Shown here: positions 6,546 through 26,495 of the stretch, one piece after another
How positions within the stretch are numbered: position 1 is the first letter of the stretch
Layout: every line of letters begins with the position of its first letter
DNA from: a virus
Taxonomy: Duplodnaviria > Caudoviricetes
Direction: 5' to 3' (one strand)
IMG/VR virus record: IMGVR_UViG_3300033121_000370
Location: 8,742 to 72,741 of that record
Length of the DNA: 64,000 nucleotides
The notes under the pieces: model-generated
The model's database searches: none
The model's input: only the letters and a program-made list of their open reading frames with translations
What the model was told of the DNA's origin: nothing
Position numbers and translations under genes: made by a program

Positions 6546-6857
6546 ATGGTTGGATTCTACCTTGATGATACACGGGAGCCGCCTAACAACGGGGAGTGGG
6601 TTGTAGCTCGTAACTTCGAGGAAGCTATCCTAGCCTATGCCCGGAATCGCTTAGTCATATCTACCCTGAGCCTTGACCATGACTTAGGGGAAATAGCTAC
6701 AGGCTTGGACTTTCTAAGGTGGTTAGAACGTAACTACCCGAATGATTTGCTGGATAAAGCTATCATAGTGCACTCAGCTAATCCTGTAGGTAAAGCTAGG
6801 ATGCAGAACTTCATCAGTGACTTTATCAGGAGTAACCCATATGGATACACCACTTAA
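6546..6857 (+). CDS. Cyclic-phosphate-processing receiver-domain (cREC)-like protein
   Basis: FYLDDTREPP...WVVARNFEEA...LSLDHDLGE..TGLDFLRWLE...IIVHSANPVG matches the LDDxR / SLDHDLG / HSaNPvG pattern of this stand-alone receiver family linked to RNA repair. Confidence 0.8.
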   Translation: MVGFYLDDTREPPNNGEWVVARNFEEAILAYARNRLVISTLSLDHDLGEIATGLDFLRWLERNYPNDLLDKAIIVHSANPVGKARMQNFISDFIRSNPYGYTT

Positions 6858-7044
6858 AGTTTCAGTAGTTATATCCGTAGCTACTGTAATATTCCTGGGA
6901 TGGGCAGCTGTAGATGCTATAGCTAAGCTACCCCAGCCTACCGCCTCAGCTCCTACCTCTATCCAGGAGTGCTGGGACAAGCCTCTGGTCCCGAACGATA
7001 AAATCCTTGAGGTTCAATCTCTTATGGAGGCTTTGCTCAAATGA
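6841..7044 (+). CDS. Small membrane protein
   Basis: ATG at 6841, one hydrophobic helix, overlaps neighbouring genes. Confidence 0.5.
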   Translation: MDTPLKVSVVISVATVIFLGWAAVDAIAKLPQPTASAPTSIQECWDKPLVPNDKILEVQSLMEALLK

Positions 7045-8672: not shown

Positions 8673-9890
8673 ATGAAGGTATTCGAGGGAATCCGTGTGC
8701 CTATCAAGGCTTGGACAGACGGGGTAGAGTTAGAGGATGAGGCCAAGCAACAGCTAGTTAACCTTAGCTCTCTCCCGTTCGTACACAAGCACGTAGCTGT
8801 TATGCCTGACGTTCACTGGGGCAAAGGAGCTACGGTTGGCTCAGTCATAGCTACCAAGGGTGCTGTAGTCCCAGCTGCTGTAGGTGTAGACATAGGCTGT
8901 GGCATGATTGCCTGTATGACGAGCCTAGTAGCCAATGATTTGCCAGATAACCTATCACAAATACGCTCAGCTATAGAGCAAGCTGTGCCCCACGGACGTT
9001 CAGATAACGGAGGCTTGGCTGATAAAGGAAGACATCTAGGAGAGTTACCTAGTGAGGCTTCCAGTAATTTCCTAAGCTTACTAAATAGCCTGAACCAAAT
9101 AGTAGAAGCAGCCCCCATTCTTGCTAAGCCAGCTGCTGCCTGTAGCCGACACATGGGCACTCTTGGTACCGGCAATCACTTCATTGAGATTTGCCTAGAC
9201 GAGGCTGACCGGGTTTGGATTATGCTCCACTCAGGTAGCCGGGGTATCGGTAACGCTATCGGTACCTACTACATCAACAAGGCCAAGGAAGAGATGCGTA
9301 AGTACTTCATCAACCTTCCTGATGCAGACTTAGCCTATCTCCCAGAGGATACTCAGGCGTACAAGGAGTACCTAAGAGCTGTAGAGTGGGCTCAGGAGTT
9401 TTCAAAGGCTAATCGGGAAACCATGATGAGCCTTGTTGTATCCAGCTTGAAGAAGTCCTTAGGCCGAGAATTTACAAGCGCTGTGGTAGCTGTGAACTGC
9501 CATCACAACTATGTCTCTACTGAGAGACACTACGGAGAGAACTTGGTTATCACCCGTAAGGGTGCAGTATCTGCTAGGGAAGGGGAACTAGGCATTATCC
9601 CCGGCTCTATGGGTGCTAAGTCCTACATTGTCCGAGGTAAGGGCAACCGGGAGAGTTTCTGTAGCTGTTCCCACGGAGCAGGGCGTAGGTTATCTCGCAA
9701 CAAGGCAAGGGAAGCTTTCACCCTTGAAGACCATGCTAGGGCAACTGCTGGTGTTGAGTGCCGTAAGGATGCCGAGGTCTTGGATGAGACACCGGGAGCC
9801 TATAAGGACATTGACGCAGTTATGCAAGCTCAAGCCGACCTAGTGGACATTGTTCACACACTAAAGCAGTTGGTTTGTATCAAAGGTTGA
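8673..9890 (+). CDS. rtcB: RtcB 3'-phosphate/2',3'-cyclic phosphate-5'-OH RNA ligase
   Basis: MPDVHWGKGATVG, VGVDIGCG, GTLGTGNHFIE, LHSGSRG, HHNY, TRKGA, IPGSMG, SCSHGAGR and DETPGAYKDI all match RtcB motifs. Confidence 0.97.
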   Translation: MKVFEGIRVPIKAWTDGVELEDEAKQQLVNLSSLPFVHKHVAVMPDVHWGKGATVGSVIATKGAVVPAAVGVDIGCGMIACMTSLVANDLPDNLSQIRSAIEQAVPHGRSDNGGLADKGRHLGELPSEASSNFLSLLNSLNQIVEAAPILAKPAAACSRHMGTLGTGNHFIEICLDEADRVWIMLHSGSRGIGNAIGTYYINKAKEEMRKYFINLPDADLAYLPEDTQAYKEYLRAVEWAQEFSKANRETMMSLVVSSLKKSLGREFTSAVVAVNCHHNYVSTERHYGENLVITRKGAVSAREGELGIIPGSMGAKSYIVRGKGNRESFCSCSHGAGRRLSRNKAREAFTLEDHARATAGVECRKDAEVLDETPGAYKDIDAVMQAQADLVDIVHTLKQLVCIKG

Positions 9891-15040: not shown

Positions 15041-15187
15041 TGTACTTGGTAGTGTTAGTAAGCAGTTACTTCTCATTGGCGAGAGAGACACGGGTTCGAT
15101 TCCCGTAGCCCTGCCTTATCTATTATGTAGGGCTTCGTCTAGTGGTAGGACACTTAAATATCTGCTTGCGACTGTTCTCCAGGTACA
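15041..15187 (+). ncRNA. yrlA: YrlA-type Y RNA with a permuted tRNA-like module
   Basis: T-arm cggg-TTCGATT-cccg precedes a closed acceptor-like hairpin (agccctgc/gtagggct) and then a D-arm (gtct-agtggt-aggac). Terminal stems gtacttgg/ccaggtac and gtaagcag/ctgcttgc. Lies ~200 nt upstream of Ro60. Confidence 0.85.
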
Positions 15188-15192
15188 GCCTA

Positions 15193-15264
15193 TTTACCTA
15201 GTGTTGAGTGCTTCGGTTACTTCTTTCGGTGAAAATACACCGAGGCTATTGTTACCTGGGTAAA
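15193..15264 (+). ncRNA. Second, short Y-RNA-like hairpin
   Basis: Outer stem tttacctag/ctgggtaaa, internal loop, inner stem cttcggt/accgagg. Shares GTTACTTCT with the YrlA. Confidence 0.55.
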
Positions 15265-15270
15265 CCCCGT

Positions 15271-15342
15271 AGCTGTGGGTAGTGAATAAGTTGGTTTCAT
15301 CTTGTAAATGACTCGCCAGCTTAGCTGAGTACTCCCACAGCT
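15271..15342 (+). ncRNA. Third Y-RNA-like hairpin with an anticodon-loop-like apex
   Basis: Outer stem agctgtggg/cccacagct, loop tagtgaat, inner stem aagttgg/ccagctt, apical tcat-CTTGTAA-atga. Confidence 0.5.
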
Positions 15343-15383: not shown

Positions 15384-16748
15384 ATGGCTAGTATCAATCA
15401 GGCTCGGGCTGTAGCGGCTCGCACAGAAGTAACCCACGGAGGAACTCCTGTCCGCCCGTACTCTAACGAGCAGCAGCTTACACGAGCAGTGCTTAGCTGT
15501 ATGCTTTGGGAAGACCAGTTCTACGAAGATGGCGTAGACATCGCTAAGCGTATCAGCCAGCTGGTACCTTTGTGTGGGCCTTCATTTGTAGCAGGGCTAG
15601 CTATAAAGGCTCGGAAAGAATGGGGTCTTCGCCACGTTCCTCTTCTTCTCACCGTAGAGATGCTCAAGCATCCCCTCCACAAGGCCTACGTAAGTGAGGC
15701 AATTACTAGTGGAGCTATCCACCGGGCAGATGATATGTCCGAACTCTTGGCTCTTTATTGGAAAGATGGAAAGAAGCCGCTTGCCAAGCAGCTAAAGAAG
15801 GGACTTGCTACAGTTTTCACCAGGTTCAACAGCTATGCACTTGCCAAGTATAAGGGTTTTGACAAGGCTGTATCCCTACGTGACGTTCTGTTTATGGTAC
15901 ACCCTAAGCCAAAGAACGCTGAGCAAGCTAAGACTTTCAAGGAGTTAGCCGATAAGACAATTGCTTCCCCGGATACTTGGGAAGTTGCCTTGTCAGGTGG
16001 GGCTAATAAGAAGGAAACATTTACCCGGCTTATCCAAGAGAGTAAGCTAGGCGGCCTCGCCCTGCTACGTAACATCCGTAACATGGAACAGGCAGGTGTG
16101 GATAAAGCTATCATAACCTTGGCTTTGGATAACATGGACTGCTCCCTCATTGAGCCCTTCCGGTTTATCGCCTGTAACAAGTATGCTAGCCCGGCACTAG
16201 AGCCAGCTATTGAGCGAGCCTTTCTCCGGGCCAGTAAGGCTTACCAAAGCCAAGCACTAGCTGCTAAATCTGTAGCAGTTCTTGTAGACCACTCGGGCTC
16301 TATGTTCCACACCAAGGTGTCGGCTAAGTCTGAGCTAGAGCGCTTCGATGCTGCTGTAGCCTTGGCAGCTATTGTTCGGGAAGCTTTTGATAACACTAGA
16401 GTTTTTAGCTTCGAGAATAAAGTAACTGAGGTTAAGCCACGTCACGGCTTCAGTCTTATAGATGAGGTCAGGCGCTGCCCGAGCGGTGGAACTAAGCTGT
16501 TCGATGCCCTGCACCTAGTAAAGGACACGGTTAATCCAGATATTATAATCTGCATCACTGATGAACAAGACACAGGTGGTACTCACCACAGTATGCCTGA
16601 CCTTAGCAAAGGTCAGCGAGGCTTTATCATTAATGTAGGCAGCTACAAGAATGGCATTAGCCACGGCCAGTGGACTAACATCACAGGGTTCTCGGATGCT
16701 GTGGTTAGGTACATTGTGGCTGACTTAAAAGGGTGTGAGGCTCTATAA
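15384..16748 (+). CDS. rsr: Ro60/Rsr TROVE-domain RNA-binding protein with vWA domain
   Basis: THGG, QQLTRAVLSCMLWEDQFYEDG, LRHVPLLL, RADDMSELLALYW, KQLKKGLA, YALAKY, LRDVLFMVHPKP, TWEVALS and ALLRNIRNM. vWA MIDAS motif VLVDHSGSM, and ITDEQ. Confidence 0.95.
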   Translation: MASINQARAVAARTEVTHGGTPVRPYSNEQQLTRAVLSCMLWEDQFYEDGVDIAKRISQLVPLCGPSFVAGLAIKARKEWGLRHVPLLLTVEMLKHPLHKAYVSEAITSGAIHRADDMSELLALYWKDGKKPLAKQLKKGLATVFTRFNSYALAKYKGFDKAVSLRDVLFMVHPKPKNAEQAKTFKELADKTIASPDTWEVALSGGANKKETFTRLIQESKLGGLALLRNIRNMEQAGVDKAIITLALDNMDCSLIEPFRFIACNKYASPALEPAIERAFLRASKAYQSQALAAKSVAVLVDHSGSMFHTKVSAKSELERFDAAVALAAIVREAFDNTRVFSFENKVTEVKPRHGFSLIDEVRRCPSGGTKLFDALHLVKDTVNPDIIICITDEQDTGGTHHSMPDLSKGQRGFIINVGSYKNGISHGQWTNITGFSDAVVRYIVADLKGCEAL

Positions 16749-16806
16749 TCCTCCTCTAAGTCCCTACTAAGGGCCACCGGGAGTAGCTACCCGGTGAAGA
16801 GTTTAC

Positions 16807-16910
16807 GCACAGGTATCCAAGTGGCAACTGGCAAAGCCAGCCCGCTTGCGGGTAAGGACGGGGACTGTACCGAAAGGGGTACGTTAGTTCGAATCTAGCC
16901 CTGTGCACCA
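16807..16910 (+). ncRNA. Non-canonical tRNA-like RNA (intact acceptor stem, T-arm and CCA; expanded D-loop; no complete anticodon arm)
   Basis: GCACAGG/CCTGTGC-A-CCA and T-arm gttag-TTCGAAT-ctagc. D-stem TCC/GGA with a 28-nt two-hairpin insertion. After GGGGA-CT the complementary TCCCC strand is absent. Confidence 0.7.
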
Positions 16911-16921
16911 CCCATAGCTTT

Positions 16922-17085
16922 CTCTAGGTGGGGCGTATAGATTCACGGATGAGCCTAAGTACTTAGTACCTCTGGGCCACATCGAGGTCGGGAGAGGTGT
17001 AGCTACCTAATGGTGATGAAGCTGCTTCTTAACCTTGGAAACCCGGATACGCTAAAGGCTTTCTAGAGGCCGTGCCCACCTAGAG
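16922..17085 (+). ncRNA. Unclassified ~165-nt structured RNA candidate
   Basis: 11-bp perfect terminal stem ctctaggtggg/cccacctagag enclosing a non-coding stretch. Confidence 0.4.
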
Positions 17086-17408
17086 GATTACCTAAATACA
17101 AGAATTCTGACCTAGGCGGCTCATTGACCTAGGCAGCGGGGCTCTACGACGGAGCTGACACAGAAGGGTTATTACCAGAGCTAGCCCCCTTCCGCTACAG
17201 GGAACAGGCCTGTCCGGTACGCCAGTAAGCCGGGAAGATTAGAGGTGGAACTGCAAGCGATATTATTCGCGACTGCTGACCAACTCTTCCAAGGACCTCC
17301 CTCTCTAGAAGCAGTAGAGTGAGTTGGTATCTACAGAGGACCAGTGCACGGGTAGCCTCGACTGAGTAATTCCAACGGGAAGGCATTTTACTAGGAGAGC
17401 TCATTATT

Positions 17409-17522
17409 ATGAAGAAGAAACCTAGTGTAGTAGCTAAGAACTTAGCTTCCCCTAGATACCATCAAAGGGTGGTGCCTAACAAGAAGAAAGAAGTTAAACC
17501 TGAGATAACTGAGGAGGACTAA
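17409..17522 (+). CDS. 37-aa basic micro-ORF with ArfA-like core
   Basis: Not in the ORF track. RBS aggag. MKKKPSVVAKNLASPRYHQRVVPNKKKEVKPEITEED; LxxPxyxQRVxxNKK resembles ArfA LHDPLFRQRVEKNKKG. Confidence 0.55.
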   Translation: MKKKPSVVAKNLASPRYHQRVVPNKKKEVKPEITEED

Positions 17523-17525
17523 CTA

Positions 17526-17831
17526 ATGCTATCACCACTTCAAACTGCCTATATCTCTCAGCCTAGAATTTCCAAGACTGACGGTGGGGATTATTTCTGC
17601 GTAGGTTACGTCTACGGAGATACTAAGGGGCGTTTCCTAGATGGAACCTTAATTCACACCAGTAAGCTGGAGAAGATAGACCTAAGAAGCGGGTCTATAG
17701 ATACTCTTAATTCTATTTACCGGATTGCTAGCGAGGCCGAAATTGCAACCTACCTACAGGCTAATAGAAATGGCAACGGCTGTAGCACTCACGTCTGCCG
17801 GTGTGGGCGGAAAGACTCATCAGACGTTTAG
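17526..17831 (+). CDS. Hypothetical phage protein
   Basis: RBS gaggagg. GYVYGDTKGRFLDGTLIHTS is a recurring small phage-protein pattern. Confidence 0.65.
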   Translation: MLSPLQTAYISQPRISKTDGGDYFCVGYVYGDTKGRFLDGTLIHTSKLEKIDLRSGSIDTLNSIYRIASEAEIATYLQANRNGNGCSTHVCRCGRKDSSDV

Positions 17832-18634: not shown

Positions 18635-19183
18635 ATGACGCTGTTTGCCGAGTTTCCTAAGATTTATCGCTTCTGGGAGCAAGATATTGTTGTAACCGAG
18701 AAGATTGATGGGACTAATGGCCTTATTCTTATCAACGAAGACCTGTCCGAGGTAAAGGCTGGTTCTCGCTCTAGGTTTATTACACCAACAAACGATAATT
18801 ATGGATTTGCCAAGTGGGTCGAAGATAACAAGGAAGAGCTGAGAAAGCTTGGGCCGGGCTACCACTACGGAGAATGGTGGGGCCAGGGTATCCAGCGGGG
18901 GTATCGTATGCCGAGAAAGGTATTTAGCCTCTTTAATGTCCACCGTTGGTCCGACCCTCTGGTTAGGCCTAGCTGCTGTGACGTTGTACCTGTGGTATAC
19001 CAAGGACTCATTCAGGGTTATCTGGAGAAGTTCCCTAACTACACAGCTGTTCCGAGCACCTCGCCCGCAGCAGACCGTTATGGCGTAACGTTTACTGACG
19101 TTGAAGGTCTTATGCTTTACTTTACGAAGTCTGGGACGTACATGAAGCACCTAAAGAAGCCAGGCCACAAGGAGGAGAAGTAA
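18635..19183 (+). CDS. ATP-dependent RNA ligase (Rnl2-like adenylation domain only)
   Basis: Motif I TEKIDGTN, AGSRSR, DNYGFAKW, motif III YGEWWGQGIQR, FSLFN and EGLM. Confidence 0.8.
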   Translation: MTLFAEFPKIYRFWEQDIVVTEKIDGTNGLILINEDLSEVKAGSRSRFITPTNDNYGFAKWVEDNKEELRKLGPGYHYGEWWGQGIQRGYRMPRKVFSLFNVHRWSDPLVRPSCCDVVPVVYQGLIQGYLEKFPNYTAVPSTSPAADRYGVTFTDVEGLMLYFTKSGTYMKHLKKPGHKEEK

Positions 19184-22966: not shown

Positions 22967-23527
22967 ATGTCCAACGTCTACTTTTTGGCGGACTTACACC
23001 TAGGGCATAGGGCAATCCTAGGCTTCAACGACTCCTCTAATAAGCCCTTGAGGGTATTCCCAGGCGGAGTACCCGAAATGCACAAATACCTAGTGTCTAA
23101 ATGGAATGCTAAGGTAGAGCCTAGCGCTAAGGTTATCGTTCTAGGAGATATTTTTCTAGTAGGTTCCTCTAGTGAGCCTGGCTACAAGGAACGCCTAGAC
23201 GAGGTAGCAGAAGTACTTAGAAGCCTGAATGGAGCTACTAAGGTCCTAGTTATGGGTAACCATGATGTAGACCCTTCGAAGCATCCTCTTCTGAAGGAAA
23301 TCTTTCAGGTACACCTAGGTTGCTACCAGTTTAAGAGAGCCATCTGTACACATATTCCGGTACATCCTGGCTCTCTAGAAGGGCGCTTCGACTACAACAT
23401 CCACGGCCACCTTCACACTTACCAGGTGAAGGATACTTTAGGTAATCCAGACCCTAGGTACATTAACGTAGCCGTAGAGCAACTAGACTACACACCTAAG
23501 ACTTATGAGGAGCTTACCAGCAGATGA
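22967..23527 (+). CDS. Calcineurin-like metallophosphoesterase
   Basis: ADLHLGH, VLGD, VMGNHD, CTHIP and IHGHLH. Confidence 0.9.
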   Translation: MSNVYFLADLHLGHRAILGFNDSSNKPLRVFPGGVPEMHKYLVSKWNAKVEPSAKVIVLGDIFLVGSSSEPGYKERLDEVAEVLRSLNGATKVLVMGNHDVDPSKHPLLKEIFQVHLGCYQFKRAICTHIPVHPGSLEGRFDYNIHGHLHTYQVKDTLGNPDPRYINVAVEQLDYTPKTYEELTSR

Positions 23528-23774: not shown

Positions 23775-26495
23775 ATGCTAAAGCCTTCAGACATGCGGTT
23801 TAATATCAAGGCCTATAAGCCGGATGAGGGCTCTAGCGAGCTTCTTGGCCACGGTCCTTGCCCTAGGTGTAGAGCCTCGGGCAAGGATACCAAAGGGGAT
23901 AACCTGGCTCTTTACAAGAATGCCGATGGTTCCCAGTCTTCTTTTTGTTTTGTTTGCTCGTATTACTCAAGGAAAGGTGACCCGGCAATGCCAAGTGTAG
24001 CCGAAGTAATTGTGCCAGAAAAATCCCTAGTGGAATTCGACACAGGCTCCTACAATCCGAGCGTGGTAAAGGCTTGCCGTAGTATCTCCCCTCAGATTTT
24101 CCAGAAGTACGCTGTACACGTCGAGGATGACAAGCACATCTATCCTTACTACGACCGGGAGAGTCACCTCCTGTGTGGGCTGAAGTACCGCTTCGTAGCC
24201 GAGAAGGGTTTCTCGTGCAAAGGCAAGATGGGCCGTGAGGCTCCTCTGTTCGGCATGAACCTGTTTCCCAAAGGTGTATACAAGACTTGTATTCTCACAG
24301 AGGGTGAGCTTGACGCTCTATCCGCTTACCAGATGATGAGTGGCCGAGTGCCTAGCCTAAGTATTGCTAACGGGGCTCAGGCTGCTAAGCGAGCTGTCCA
24401 GGCTAACTGGGATTACCTATCATCTTTCGAGACGGTCTACCTGTGCTTTGACTCTGACGAAGAGGGGCGTAGGGCTACTGAAGAAGTGGCTCCTATGTTT
24501 CAGGCGGGAAAGGTTAAACTCATCCAGCTTCCGGGCGAGGCCAAGGATGCTAACGATGTTCTGGACAAGTTAGCTGACCCTGGTATCTTCAACCGGGCCT
24601 ACAACAACGCTAAGGTATGGGTGCCGGAAGGAATCATCTGCTCTAGTAACTTGTGGGAGACTCTCCTTGAGGATGACACCAAGGAATCTGTTCCGTACCC
24701 GTGGGCATCTTTGAACGACTACACCTACGGTATTCGTCCAGGTGAGCTTATTACTCTCTGCTCAGGCTGTGTTGACGCCGATACAGAGTTTCTAACACGT
24801 GCTGGTTGGAAGAGAATCGCAGAGTACGAAGTAGGAGATGAGGTTCTTCAGTATGATAAAGATACTAAGGTAGCCACGTTTACACTTCCACAGAAGTATG
24901 TAAAGCTACCAGCTAAGAGCCTGTGGCATATTAAAACCAAGTACGGGGTTGACCAAGTATTGTCTGATGAACACCGTATCCTCTACGACACAGCTGATGG
25001 CTATACTTACGTGAATACCCTAGCTGAAGTAATGGACATCCATGCTAGCCAGGTAACAGGGTTTAGGGGTAAGCTCAGAACTACCTTTATTCTAGGTGAT
25101 ACCGGAAGTTCCAGCCCAATGAGTGACCCCATACTCCGGGTGATGACAGCTGTAATAGCTGATGGACACTTCCCTAGTTTAAATAACAAGTGTAAAATGC
25201 GTTTGAAAAAGGAGCGTAAGAAGGAGAGAATTACGAAGCTTTTAACAGAGGCTAATATACCCTTTACAAGGGAACCTTGCTCACCATACGAGGGTTTTGA
25301 GGTATTCACATTCGTAGCCCCTTACAGAGTTAAGGAAGCTAGCCAAGAGCTATTCTGGTCTATGGATGCTAGGCAGCTAAAACTCTTTACAGAGGAAGTT
25401 CTATTCTGGGATGGTTGTATCTCTGGTAATTCCTTTTCTTCTAGAAACAAAACTACAGCTGACTTCGTTCAGTACGCCTTTAGTGCTAACGGTCAAAGGG
25501 CTACACTTCTGACACAGGTTAGAGGTGACCAAGGTATAGACCTAAGTGTGTATATGACTAAGAAAACTCTAGTCTCTTTTAGAAAAACTAATATGAGTAA
25601 ACCTGAATTTAAAGAATACCCTACAACTGACGGATTCAAGTACTGCTTTGCTGTGCCTACAGGTTTCCTAGTCCTACGACGCGGGCCTAATATCTTTATT
25701 ACAGGTAATTCCGGCCAAGGCAAGTCAGCGTTCATGAAAGAGATTGCCTACCACCTGCTGAAGAACACCAGGGCTAACATAGGTCTACTCTTTCTAGAGG
25801 AAGGTGTAAAGAAGACAGCCAAAGGCATCATGAGTCTGGAACTTAATAAGCCTCTCCACATCCCGGATACCAAGTACTCTCCTGAAGAGTTCCAGAAGGC
25901 GTACAACGTAGTTATGAAGCCGGGCCGGTTCTACTTCTACGACCACTTCGGCTCTACGTCGATTGACAACATCGTAGCTCAGGTACACTACATGGCTATG
26001 GTTGCTGGTTGTAGATACATCTTCCTTGACCACATCTCCATCATTGTCTCTAGCCAGGAGAATGGCGATGAGCGCAAGGCCCTTGATGAGATTATGACCA
26101 AGTTACGTACTCTGGTCCAAGAGACTGGTATCTGCTTATTCGTAGTCACGCACCTTAAGCGCGTGGATGATGGCCACGAGAACGGTGGAGAGATTAGCCT
26201 AAACCACTTGAGAGGCTCAGCCGGTATCGCCCAACTCTCAGATTTTGTCATAGGGCTAGAGCGTAACTCTCAGGACCCTGATGTATCCCGGCGCAATACA
26301 ACCGTACTGCGCGTACTGAAGAACAGGCCATTCGGTATCTCCGGGCTGGCAGCCGCTGTACACTTCGACCGTAAGACTTGGCGCTTGAATGAGGTAGACC
26401 TAGAATCTTACTTGACTAAAGGCAAAGGAGGTGCTAAGGTTGAGGCTGGGCCTGGCCCAGCCCCTGAGGGCTTCCAACCGCGTAGGCCACAGTAA
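23775..26495 (+). CDS. T7 gp4-like primase-helicase with an intein in the Walker A motif
   Basis: CPRC/CFVC zinc finger, TOPRIM (TEGELDALS, FDSDEEG, KDAND), SG/SGQGKS, IFLDHIS, HLKR, LRGSAGIAQLSD and VLKNR. Confidence 0.95.
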   Translation: MLKPSDMRFNIKAYKPDEGSSELLGHGPCPRCRASGKDTKGDNLALYKNADGSQSSFCFVCSYYSRKGDPAMPSVAEVIVPEKSLVEFDTGSYNPSVVKACRSISPQIFQKYAVHVEDDKHIYPYYDRESHLLCGLKYRFVAEKGFSCKGKMGREAPLFGMNLFPKGVYKTCILTEGELDALSAYQMMSGRVPSLSIANGAQAAKRAVQANWDYLSSFETVYLCFDSDEEGRRATEEVAPMFQAGKVKLIQLPGEAKDANDVLDKLADPGIFNRAYNNAKVWVPEGIICSSNLWETLLEDDTKESVPYPWASLNDYTYGIRPGELITLCSGCVDADTEFLTRAGWKRIAEYEVGDEVLQYDKDTKVATFTLPQKYVKLPAKSLWHIKTKYGVDQVLSDEHRILYDTADGYTYVNTLAEVMDIHASQVTGFRGKLRTTFILGDTGSSSPMSDPILRVMTAVIADGHFPSLNNKCKMRLKKERKKERITKLLTEANIPFTREPCSPYEGFEVFTFVAPYRVKEASQELFWSMDARQLKLFTEEVLFWDGCISGNSFSSRNKTTADFVQYAFSANGQRATLLTQVRGDQGIDLSVYMTKKTLVSFRKTNMSKPEFKEYPTTDGFKYCFAVPTGFLVLRRGPNIFITGNSGQGKSAFMKEIAYHLLKNTRANIGLLFLEEGVKKTAKGIMSLELNKPLHIPDTKYSPEEFQKAYNVVMKPGRFYFYDHFGSTSIDNIVAQVHYMAMVAGCRYIFLDHISIIVSSQENGDERKALDEIMTKLRTLVQETGICLFVVTHLKRVDDGHENGGEISLNHLRGSAGIAQLSDFVIGLERNSQDPDVSRRNTTVLRVLKNRPFGISGLAAAVHFDRKTWRLNEVDLESYLTKGKGGAKVEAGPGPAPEGFQPRRPQ
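24768..25709 (+). mobile_element. Helicase intein (314 aa) with LAGLIDADG-like core
   Basis: CVDADTE...VIADG...FWDG...FITGN/S. Excision restores TLCSG-SGQGKS. Confidence 0.92.

What the first reader, a model, noticed from the sequence alone, without database searches (positions are those of the whole stretch)
16807..16910. tRNA-like RNA with CCA end but no anticodon arm and a two-hairpin D-loop insertion, right after Ro60
The acceptor stem (7 bp), A73-CCA, T-arm (TTCGAAT loop) and D-stem are intact. The D-loop holds a 28-nt insert (ctggc-aaa-gccag plus cccgc-tt-gcggg). After GGGGA-CT (positions 27-33) the 3' half of the anticodon arm is missing and a long variable-arm-like hairpin follows. 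The break falls just after U33, where PrrC-type anticodon nucleases cut (established). Inference: a nuclease-resistant tRNA mimic, decoy, or Ro60/RtcB partner rather than a decayed tRNA, since the stems remain well paired.
Basis: partly seen in the sequence, partly recalled or inferred. Interest (0 to 1): 0.7.

Follow-up and report, generated by a model that had tools for sequence, protein, structure and literature searches.

The report
Remodelled, non-decoding tRNA-Tyr gene beside phage Ro60
Just after its Ro60 gene, an uncultured phage carries a tyrosine-tRNA gene that keeps its amino-acid-accepting end and even its GUA anticodon, but it has lost half of the anticodon arm and gained a hairpin insert, so it cannot decode; it is either a tRNA look-alike RNA or a recently broken tRNA, and no relative was available to decide.

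Summary
The element is real. Window 16807-16910 (+) has a perfect 7-bp acceptor stem, a canonical T arm, A73 and an encoded CCA. My scan found it to be the only such element in 64 kb, against about 0.01 expected by chance. ARAGORN and Rfam do not call it.

The new result is its origin. The same acceptor stem with A73-CCA occurs in 95 tRNA-Tyr(GUA) genes, mostly from Acidobacteriota. Aligned to them, the element keeps the 5' strand of the anticodon stem plus C32-U33-G34-U35-A36, so the GUA anticodon is still present. About 9 nt are missing (37-44 and the start of the variable stem), and about 26 nt are inserted in the D loop. The break therefore lies after nt 36, not after U33, and the PrrC link fails. 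The "variable-arm hairpin" is GUA+CC pairing with GG+UAC. The insert also pairs with the D loop to give a long rod that is predicted to be about 5.6 kcal/mol more stable than the cloverleaf.

No homologue or analogue turned up in about 290 Ro60, RtcB and RNA-ligase loci or in 34 whole related phage records. It lacks the Ro60 handle found in the YrlA-like RNAs upstream, and in the tRNA-shaped Y RNAs this scan reported in other phages. My reading: a non-decoding tRNA-Tyr mimic (about 0.4) against a dead tRNA-Tyr gene (about 0.35).

The parts
16720..16749 (+). sigma-70-like promoter match (CTGACT-18-TATAAT) inside the end of the Ro60 ORF. It could drive the downstream non-coding stretch.
   Evidence: 10 of 12 hexamer matches. 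The evidence is weak: 6 sites were found in the region against 2.5 expected.
16749..16806 (+). 58-nt leader with two small hairpins. AGTCCCT (16759-16765) is complementary to GGGGACT (16860-16866).
   Evidence: By my own estimate, this complementarity has roughly a 0.1 chance of arising at random.
16807..16813 (+). 5' strand of the acceptor stem, GCACAGG
   Evidence: It is identical to the acceptor stem of Acidobacteriota tRNA-Tyr.
16814..16825 (+). U8, A9, 5' strand of the D stem (TCC) and the D-loop start AAGTGGC of the class II tRNA type, including A14, G15 and the G18-G19 equivalent
   Evidence: alignment to tRNA-Tyr (TG GCC GAGTGG T...)
16826..16852 (+). insert of about 26-27 nt in the D loop: hairpin CTGGC-AAA-GCCAG plus CCCG-CTTG-CGGG. 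Its 3' part is a near inverted copy of CCAAGTGG.
   Evidence: absent from tRNA-Tyr; insert folds at -12.2 kcal/mol, 2.6% of shuffles fold as well; rod alternative; unique in the genome
16853..16859 (+). TAA (including the A21 equivalent), 3' strand of the D stem (GGA), and nt 26
16860..16869 (+). 5' strand of the anticodon stem (GGGGA, positions 27-31), C32, U33 and the retained GUA anticodon (34-36, at 16867-16869). The partner strand is absent.
   Evidence: in register with GCAGA-CTGTA of tRNA-Tyr
16870..16882 (+). remnant of the variable arm (CC-GAAA-GGGG-TAC). Together with GTA it forms the 5-bp hairpin 16867-16871 / 16878-16882.
   Evidence: pair probabilities 0.97-1.0; TAC precedes the T stem in the tRNA-Tyr set
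16883..16899 (+). T arm GTTAG-TTCGAAT-CTAGC
16900..16910 (+). 3' strand of the acceptor stem (CCTGTGC), discriminator A73 and an encoded CCA
15384..16748 (+). Ro60 homologue (TROVE + vWA). Context only; not shown to bind the element.
15059..15171 (+). YrlA-like Y RNA upstream of Ro60, with a T arm, a loop-closed acceptor stem and a D arm. It is the likely true Ro60 partner. Context only.
   Evidence: sequence; Rfam RF02553, 18.5 bits, E 0.28, full length, below the family threshold; homologues in other Ro60 loci

Best explanation
The element is a remodelled tRNA-Tyr(GUA) gene of a phage whose host is probably an acidobacterium.

What remains and what changed:
- It keeps the whole top half of the tRNA: acceptor stem, T arm, A73 and CCA.
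- It keeps the class II D arm, the 5' strand of the anticodon stem and the GUA anticodon.
- It lacks about 9 nt: A37, A38, the 3' strand of the anticodon stem (39-43), nt 44 and the start of the variable stem.
- It carries an insert of about 26 nt in the D loop.
- It therefore cannot present an anticodon and cannot decode.

Inferred mechanism:
- It is transcribed with the non-coding stretch after Ro60.
- Host RNase P and 3' trimming release it, because both act on the intact acceptor/T-arm minihelix.
- It persists as a CCA-ended RNA of about 104 nt whose body is a new rod or hairpin in place of the anticodon limb.
- It then acts as a tyrosine-tRNA look-alike. It occupies proteins that read the tRNA-Tyr acceptor end, elbow or variable-arm region, such as a tRNA-Tyr-directed defence nuclease or TyrRS, without being usable or destroyable at an anticodon loop.
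- This would fit a phage island devoted to RNA damage and repair.

Shown: the anatomy, the tRNA-Tyr ancestry and the inability to decode. Inferred: expression, processing and the mimic role.
For: Ancestry:
- The same 7-bp acceptor stem with A73-CCA was found in 120 genome stretches. ARAGORN of them tRNA-Tyr(GTA), plus 2 tRNA-Leu, mostly in Terriglobales/Acidobacteriota.
- The alignment puts GGGGA-CTGTA in register with positions 27-36 of tRNA-Tyr. TAC precedes the T stem, as it does in those genes.

Integrity:
- The acceptor stem is 7 of 7 paired and the T stem 5 of 5. The T loop is TTCGAAT.
- U8, A14, G15, GG, A21 and C48 are present, and no stem is broken by a point change.
- The insert is structured (2.6% of shuffles fold as well) and complementary to the D loop.

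Context:
- RNA-repair genes lie around it: cREC_REC, RtcB, TROVE, RNA ligase and a phosphoesterase.
- A YrlA-like RNA lies upstream.
- A promoter-like site sits at 16720-16749.
- No convincing ORF covers the element.

Published precedent:
- tRNA-Tyr is cut in its variable loop by Septu/retron-Eco7 PtuAB, and phage tRNA-Tyr genes counter this (PMC11555353, PMC13096335).
- Hughes et al. proposed that the anticodon-less tRNA-like domain of YrlA is a competitive inhibitor of an anticodon nuclease (PMC7790460).
Against: - There is no evidence of conservation. No homologue or analogue appeared in 63 viral and 80 metagenomic Ro60 loci, 18 RNA-ligase loci, 80 RtcB loci or 34 whole related virus records.
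- The perfect new hairpin follows from GUA/UAC self-complementarity and need not have been selected.
- The dangling, unchanged GGGGA-CUGUA looks like a recent lesion.
- In the retron-Eco7 work, changing the anticodon of the phage tRNA-Tyr abolished rescue (PMC11555353). The known counter-defence therefore needs decoding, which this RNA cannot do.
- The favoured predicted fold destroys the D arm and the elbow.
- Expression is untested.
Confidence: 0.4

Rival explanations
1. It is a dead tRNA-Tyr gene. A formerly working phage tRNA-Tyr(GUA) lost about 9 nt of its anticodon arm and picked up a palindromic D-loop insertion, for example by template switching. It now has no function and has simply not yet been deleted.
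For: - Clear tRNA-Tyr ancestry, with the anticodon and the 5' stem strand left unchanged and unpaired.
- The new hairpin follows automatically from GUA/UAC complementarity.
- The insert is a nested palindrome whose 3' part is a near inverted copy of the adjacent D-loop sequence, the pattern a replication error would leave.
- It is an orphan: nothing similar was found in about 290 related loci.
- Ro60 genes of other phages sit inside tRNA clusters (L002, L008, L013), so a tRNA relic here is plausible.
- The phage has only one canonical tRNA left.
Against: - There are two large lesions but no point change that breaks any of the 15 remaining canonical pairs or the roughly 12 conserved core nucleotides.
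- It sits at the head of about 660-780 nt with no convincing ORF, in a phage whose window is about 89% covered by ORFs in a crude greedy call.
- A promoter-like site lies directly upstream.
Confidence: 0.35
2. It is a Ro60-bound partner RNA, a further Y-like RNA. Ro60 would dock on the D-loop rod or on the single-stranded 3' end, and the tRNA-like part would recruit tRNA enzymes.
For: - It lies 58 nt after the Ro60 stop codon.
- Ro60 partners are typically tRNA mimics encoded next to the gene (PMC4201824).
- Open-acceptor tRNA-shaped RNAs carrying a Y-RNA module lie downstream of Ro60 in other phages (earlier notes of this scan).
Against: - It has no Ro60-handle motif. A profile of 90 GGTGGYGAAG...TTACTTC handles hits only the upstream Y RNAs, and weakly, with nothing in 16749-17525.
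- Rfam YrlA gives no match there at E up to 10.
- It shows no similarity to the three upstream Y RNAs.
- The upstream YrlA-like RNAs already supply partners.
- The design does not recur beside any other Ro60 gene.
Confidence: 0.12
3. It is a processing signal. The tRNA-like minihelix serves only as an RNase P and 3'-end cleavage site that separates the Ro60 mRNA from the downstream structured RNAs. The released piece is discarded.
For: - The top half is intact while the body is dispensable.
- It lies between an mRNA and a long non-coding stretch.
- tRNA-like punctuation is established elsewhere, for example in mascRNA/MALAT1 and mitochondrial transcripts (background knowledge).
Against: - An encoded CCA, A73 and intact D-arm core nucleotides are more than a cleavage signal needs.
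- There is no comparative support.
Confidence: 0.08

Closest known systems
Bacterial class II tRNA-Tyr(GUA), in particular that of Terriglobales/Acidobacteriota
   Same: - Identical 7-bp acceptor stem, A73 and encoded CCA.
- Same T loop, TTCGAAT.
- 3-bp D stem with an RAGUGG D loop.
- C32-U33-G34-U35-A36 in register.
- TAC before the T stem.
   Different: - It lacks nt 37-44 and part of the variable stem, so there is no anticodon stem-loop.
- It carries an insert of about 26 nt in the D loop.
- The T stem, D stem and anticodon-stem sequences have diverged.
- tRNA finders do not call it.
YrlA-type Y RNAs (Rfam RF02553; Chen et al. 2014, PMC4201824)
   Same: - It is a non-decoding tRNA mimic encoded next to Ro60, in an island that also holds RtcB.
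- It has a T arm, a D arm and an acceptor-like stem.
- A 7-bp acceptor stem could be cut by RNase P and end in CCA, as shown for M. smegmatis YrlA.
   Different: - YrlA is circularly permuted. Its acceptor stem is closed by a loop, and its 5' and 3' ends form the Ro60-binding helix with a GNCGAAG-type motif.
- Here the acceptor stem is open, CCA is encoded, no handle is present and the Rfam model does not match.
- A true YrlA-like RNA lies upstream.
Open-acceptor 'tRNA-shaped Y RNAs' beside phage Ro60
   Same: - Normal tRNA gene order with a free acceptor end.
- The anticodon arm is not a decoding arm.
- It lies just downstream of Ro60.
   Different: - Those RNAs carry a Y-RNA module (..TAGTG.. 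..GAGTTACTTC..) in place of the anticodon arm, have a normal D arm and encode no CCA.
- This element has no such module, has a D-loop insert and encodes CCA.
Phage tRNA-Tyr genes used against tRNA-Tyr-cleaving defences (retron-Eco7/Septu PtuAB; PMC11555353, PMC13096335)
   Same: It is a phage-borne derivative of tRNA-Tyr, the tRNA that these nucleases cut in the variable loop. The variable-arm region is remodelled here.
   Different: The known rescuers are complete, decoding tRNAs, and rescue was lost when the anticodon was changed. This RNA cannot decode, so it could act only as a competitor.
tmRNA tRNA-like domain
   Same: It has an acceptor stem, a T arm and a CCA end without an anticodon arm.
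   Different: It has no G3-U70 pair (A3-U70 here), no mRNA-like part and no pseudoknots. ARAGORN finds no tmRNA.

Membership tests
canonical tRNA (tRNA-Tyr) | 7-bp acceptor stem, discriminator base and CCA end | tested here: met
   identical to 95 tRNA-Tyr genes
canonical tRNA (tRNA-Tyr) | T arm: 5-bp stem and a 7-nt TPsiC-type loop | tested here: met
canonical tRNA (tRNA-Tyr) | D arm that folds and forms the elbow through G18-G19 | tested here: inconclusive
   The nucleotides are present, but a competing rod fold is about 5.6 kcal/mol more stable and the D-stem pair probability is 0.0.
canonical tRNA (tRNA-Tyr) | anticodon arm: 5-bp stem and a 7-nt loop presenting the anticodon | tested here: not met
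   The 3' strand and nt 37-38 are absent. GUA is paired in a hairpin.
canonical tRNA (tRNA-Tyr) | recognised by tRNA gene finders or the Rfam tRNA model RF00005 | tested here: not met
YrlA / bacterial Y RNA (RF02553) | 5' and 3' ends pair into a Ro60-binding helix with a GNCGAAG-type motif | tested here: not met
   The ends form an acceptor stem instead. The handle profile finds nothing in 16749-17525. The test has low power, because the true upstream Y RNAs score only E 0.5-2.4.
YrlA / bacterial Y RNA (RF02553) | permuted tRNA-like domain with a loop-closed acceptor stem | tested here: not met
   open acceptor stem in normal tRNA order
YrlA / bacterial Y RNA (RF02553) | match to the Rfam covariance model | tested here: not met
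   No match at E up to 10, whereas 15059-15171 gives a full-length sub-threshold match.
YrlA / bacterial Y RNA (RF02553) | encoded next to Ro60 | tested here: met
   58 nt after the Ro60 stop codon
YrlA / bacterial Y RNA (RF02553) | physically bound by Ro60 | not testable with these tools
   needs a pull-down or gel shift
tmRNA | G3-U70 alanine identity pair, tag reading frame and pseudoknots | tested here: not met
   A3-U70 here; total length 104 nt; ARAGORN -m finds none
tRNA pseudogene | clear tRNA ancestry plus loss of an essential element | tested here: met
tRNA pseudogene | random, uncompensated changes in the remaining stems and core | tested here: not met
   No mismatch in the acceptor, T or D stems; the core nucleotides are intact.
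tRNA pseudogene | relatives carry an intact tRNA at the same place, or lack conservation of the lesions | not testable with these tools

The most novel reading that the evidence does not exclude
The phage deliberately encodes an 'amputated' tyrosine tRNA. It is a CCA-ended RNA, processed by RNase P, that keeps the tRNA-Tyr identity elements of the acceptor end and a variable-arm-like hairpin but has no anticodon loop. It would serve as a decoy or competitive inhibitor of a host nuclease that targets tRNA-Tyr (Septu/PtuAB-like). Alternatively it would be tyrosylated for a use outside the ribosome. Either way it would work alongside the phage's RtcB, Ro60 and ligase repair genes. This would be a gene-encoded tRNA decoy of a design not yet described.
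Probability: 0.15. Interest if true: 0.75.

Novelty: new variant of a known kind. Interest (0 to 1): 0.4.

Why it matters
Phage tRNA genes are now known to counter host nucleases that cut tRNAs, including tRNA-Tyr. Ro60 and RtcB islands carry tRNA mimics whose function is still unknown. A tRNA-Tyr derivative that keeps the aminoacyl end and the anticodon letters but has no anticodon arm would be a new way to mimic a tRNA without decoding, if it proves to be maintained and expressed. It would also give a concrete substrate for testing the competitive-inhibitor idea raised for YrlA. If it is only a broken gene, it shows that the tRNA cluster usually found around phage Ro60 is decaying in this lineage, and it points to an acidobacterial host. 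In either case the PrrC-type reading should be dropped.

Tried and rejected
**Detection**
- ARAGORN at default and relaxed settings, with the intron and mitochondrial options, and on insert-deleted copies gave only junk calls below threshold.
- Rfam at the gathering threshold and at E up to 10 matched nothing at the element.

**Search for homologues**
- blastn and nhmmer of the element and of the whole 16749-17525 stretch found nothing in any of these sets: 63 viral Ro60 loci, 80 metagenome Ro60 loci, 18 RNA-ligase loci and 80 RtcB loci.
- Exact-pattern scans of viral contigs for the T arm with acceptor stem, and for the insert, gave 0 hits.
- blastn against 50,697 phage records gave only short T-arm matches, E about 3.
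- A single-sequence covariance model R1 run over 34 whole related virus records found only ordinary tRNA-Val and tRNA-Ser plus noise.
- A structural scan for other open-acceptor, NCCA-ended elements that ARAGORN does not call found none of this design.

**Readings rejected**
- attP or an integration remnant: no tyrosine integrase in the genome, and both acceptor strands are present.
- A phage-encoded CCA-adding enzyme: none found.
- tmRNA: none found.
- A repeated mobile hairpin as the source of the insert: the insert is unique in the genome.
- A trans partner for the single-stranded GGACGGGGACT: no complementary site beyond chance.
- Similarity to the upstream Y RNAs: none.
- tRNA-Leu or tRNA-Ser ancestry: the acceptor stem, GUA and TAC point to Tyr instead. 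With the acceptor stem removed, though, body similarity to tRNA-Tyr is only tied for best.

**Inconclusive**
- A crude ORF-based map of non-coding gaps was confounded by spurious short ORFs.

Full report
**Where it is.** The window is part of a 72.7-kb virus record from IMG/VR. All plausible genes around the finding lie on the + strand. Pfam places the following nearby:
- a cREC receiver protein at 6546
- RtcB at 8673-9890
- a TROVE+vWA Ro60 homologue at 15384-16748
- a deaminase at 17725
- an RNA ligase at 18635
- a metallophosphoesterase at 22967

The element begins 58 nt after the Ro60 stop codon. It heads a stretch (16749 to about 17408-17525) with no convincing ORF.

**Check of the observation.**
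- acceptor stem GCACAGG/CCTGTGC, 7 of 7 pairs
- A73 and an encoded CCA
- T arm GTTAG-TTCGAAT-CTAGC
- a 3-bp D stem
- the core nucleotides U8, A14, G15, GG, A21 and a C before the T stem
- two hairpin-forming blocks in the D loop

A purpose-built scan looked for a T loop, a 5-bp T stem and a 7-bp acceptor stem. It finds this as the only NCCA-ended hit in the 64 kb. Shuffled windows give 0.01 such hits. ARAGORN finds only one tRNA (Met) in the whole phage and does not call the element. Relaxed settings give calls with broken stems. Rfam gives nothing, even at E up to 10.

**What it derives from.** I scanned one genome per prokaryote species for the same acceptor stem with A73-CCA. ARAGORN of them tRNAs, and 95 of those are tRNA-Tyr(GTA), mostly from Terriglobales and other Acidobacteriota. 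I then aligned the element to these genes, with four results:
- The D arm is homologous: TG-GCC-GAGTGG-TTAAT-GGC against TA-TCC-AAGTGG-[insert]-TAA-GGA.
- GGGGA-CTGTA lies in register with positions 27-36 (GCAGA-CTGTA).
- TAC precedes the T stem in both.
- The T loop is identical.

The GUA anticodon is therefore still in the gene, at 16867-16869. What is missing is about 9 nt: A37, A38, the 3' strand of the anticodon stem, nt 44 and the first bases of the variable stem. What is added is about 26 nt between G19/nt 20 and the TAA that ends the D loop.

The choice of Tyr does not rest on overall similarity. With the acceptor stem removed, tRNA-Tyr is only tied for best. The assignment rests on four features together: the acceptor stem with A73, the class II D arm, GUA at exactly positions 34-36, and TAC before the T stem. 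I put it at about 0.8.

- The break lies after nt 36, not after U33. The proposed coincidence with the PrrC cleavage site therefore disappears.
- The 'long variable-arm-like hairpin' GUACC-GAAAGG-GGUAC is the anticodon GUA plus CC, paired with GG plus UAC. GUAC is a palindrome and the variable-arm remnant supplies CC/GG. A simple deletion would thus create this perfect hairpin without any selection. That weakens the argument that well-paired stems rule out decay.
- The second insert hairpin must be CCCG-CUUG-CGGG, because a 2-nt loop is impossible.
- The 3' part of the insert (CCGCTTGCGG) is a near inverted copy of the adjacent CCAAGTGG. ViennaRNA therefore prefers a long rod pairing 16814-16824 with 16842-16854. 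With the acceptor stem and T arm held as pairs, this fold reaches -41.4 kcal/mol, against -35.8 for the cloverleaf with two insert hairpins.
- In the rod fold, U8, A14 and the GG are paired and the elbow cannot form. Which fold exists cannot be settled without covariation or probing.
- The part that is robust under both folds is the acceptor/T-arm minihelix with ACCA.

**Search for relatives and analogues.** Nothing similar was found in any of these:
- 63 viral and 80 metagenomic Ro60 loci
- 18 RNA-ligase loci
- 80 RtcB loci, 1.3 Mb
- exact-pattern scans of all viral contigs
- 50,697 phage records
- 34 whole related virus records, searched with a covariance model

The whole non-coding stretch after Ro60 is lineage-specific. 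The stretch upstream of Ro60, by contrast, does match other Ro60 loci. The closest Ro60 in the accessible collections is about 50% identical. The decisive comparison could therefore not be made.

**Relation to Ro60.**
- The upstream stretch holds a classic YrlA-type RNA with a T arm, a loop-closed acceptor stem and a D arm (15059-15171). Rfam YrlA matches it full-length but below threshold, at 18.5 bits.
- In another phage group (L028-L062), RNAs of about 130-150 nt lie downstream of Ro60. They have an open acceptor stem, most a normal D arm, and a Y-RNA module (..TAGTG.. ..GAGTTACTTC..) in place of the anticodon arm.
- Earlier notes of this scan describe the same design in other genomes.
- The present element has none of this. 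A profile built from 90 handle motifs hits only the upstream Y RNAs, and weakly. Nothing in 16749-17525 matches.
- The element shows no similarity to the upstream Y RNAs.
- Adjacency is therefore the only link to Ro60.

**Explanations.** Shown: the element is a tRNA-Tyr(GUA)-derived gene that cannot decode. Beyond that, two readings are close.

(a) A maintained tRNA-Tyr look-alike, about 0.4.
- There are two large rearrangements, yet no point lesion in any remaining stem or core nucleotide.
- The insert is structured, and CCA is encoded.
- A promoter-like site lies upstream.
- It heads a long non-coding stretch in a densely packed phage.
- It would be released by RNase P and 3' trimming. This is established for minihelices and for the 7-bp 'acceptor' stem of M. 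smegmatis YrlA (PMC4201824).
- It could then compete for proteins that read tRNA-Tyr.
- tRNA-Tyr is a known target of PtuAB nucleases, which cut its variable loop (PMC11555353, PMC13096335).
- A competitive-inhibitor role has been suggested for the anticodon-less tRNA-like domain of YrlA (PMC7790460).
- Against this reading: rescue by phage tRNA-Tyr needed an intact anticodon in the published case.

(b) A recently broken tRNA-Tyr gene, about 0.35.
- The 5' stem strand and CUGUA are unchanged and dangling.
- The hairpin arises automatically.
- The insert looks like a template-switch palindrome.
- Nothing shows conservation.
- Ro60 genes of other phages sit inside tRNA clusters.

Two further readings are less likely: a Ro60-bound partner (about 0.12) and a mere processing signal (about 0.08).

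**Rejected.** An attP remnant is ruled out: the genome has no integrase and both acceptor strands are present. The other rejected readings are:
- tmRNA (A3-U70, and ARAGORN finds none)
- a repeated mobile hairpin
- a trans-pairing partner for the single-stranded linker

**Verdict.** The element is real and odd. Its identity is now clear: tRNA-Tyr with the anticodon letters retained. Its function remains unproven because no relative could be examined. Interest is moderate.

Noticed in passing
L028-L062 (e.g. L031:4517-4661, L030:4762-4903): Many loci of this group carry one or two RNAs of about 130-150 nt downstream of Ro60. They have an open 7-bp acceptor stem, a T arm and, in most, a normal D arm. 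A Y-RNA-like module (..TAGTG.. ..GAGTTACTTC..) stands where the anticodon arm should be. No CCA is encoded and ARAGORN does not call them.
   Followed up: partly
window 15041-15342: Three Y-RNA-like elements lie upstream of Ro60. The first (15059-15171) is a divergent YrlA with a loop-closed acceptor stem. Rfam RF02553 matches it full-length at 18.5 bits, below threshold. This stretch has homologues in other Ro60 loci (L066, L002).
   Followed up: partly
window 16922-17090: Directly after the element, an 11-bp helix (TTCTCTAGGTGGG / CCCACCTAGAGGA) closes a structured stretch of about 165 nt. It contains GGTGATGAAG-CTGCTTCTTAAC (17012-17033), which resembles the YrlA handle by eye. Neither my handle profile nor Rfam matched it.
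   Followed up: partly
window 16759-16765 and 16860-16866: AGTCCCT in the leader is complementary to the orphan anticodon-stem strand GGGGACT (7 pairs, one of them G-U). It could stand in for the lost stem strand in the precursor. By my estimate it has about a 0.1 chance of arising at random.
   Followed up: no
window 6981-7035: My scan also flagged a 55-nt stretch with a T-loop-like motif, a 5-bp stem and a 7-bp closing stem, with tail TTTG. It lies inside ORFs. Since 0.41 such hits are expected by chance, it is probably nothing.
   Followed up: no
window 23775-26495: The 906-aa primase-helicase matches pelagiphage primases in two separate pieces covering about 60% of the protein. This may mean an insertion such as an intein.
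   Followed up: no
L013:5096-5172 and L114:2705-2780: These are ordinary-looking CCA-ended tRNA genes of 76-77 nt that ARAGORN missed at default settings.
   Followed up: no
Genome-contig hits L182, L207, L245, L286 (Variovorax and others): The same acceptor-stem pattern also closes non-tRNA stretches of 92-104 nt with a conserved core (..GGGTACTCCCCTCCGCGAATGTCCCCC..). They look like a repeated structured element and seem unrelated to this finding.
   Followed up: no
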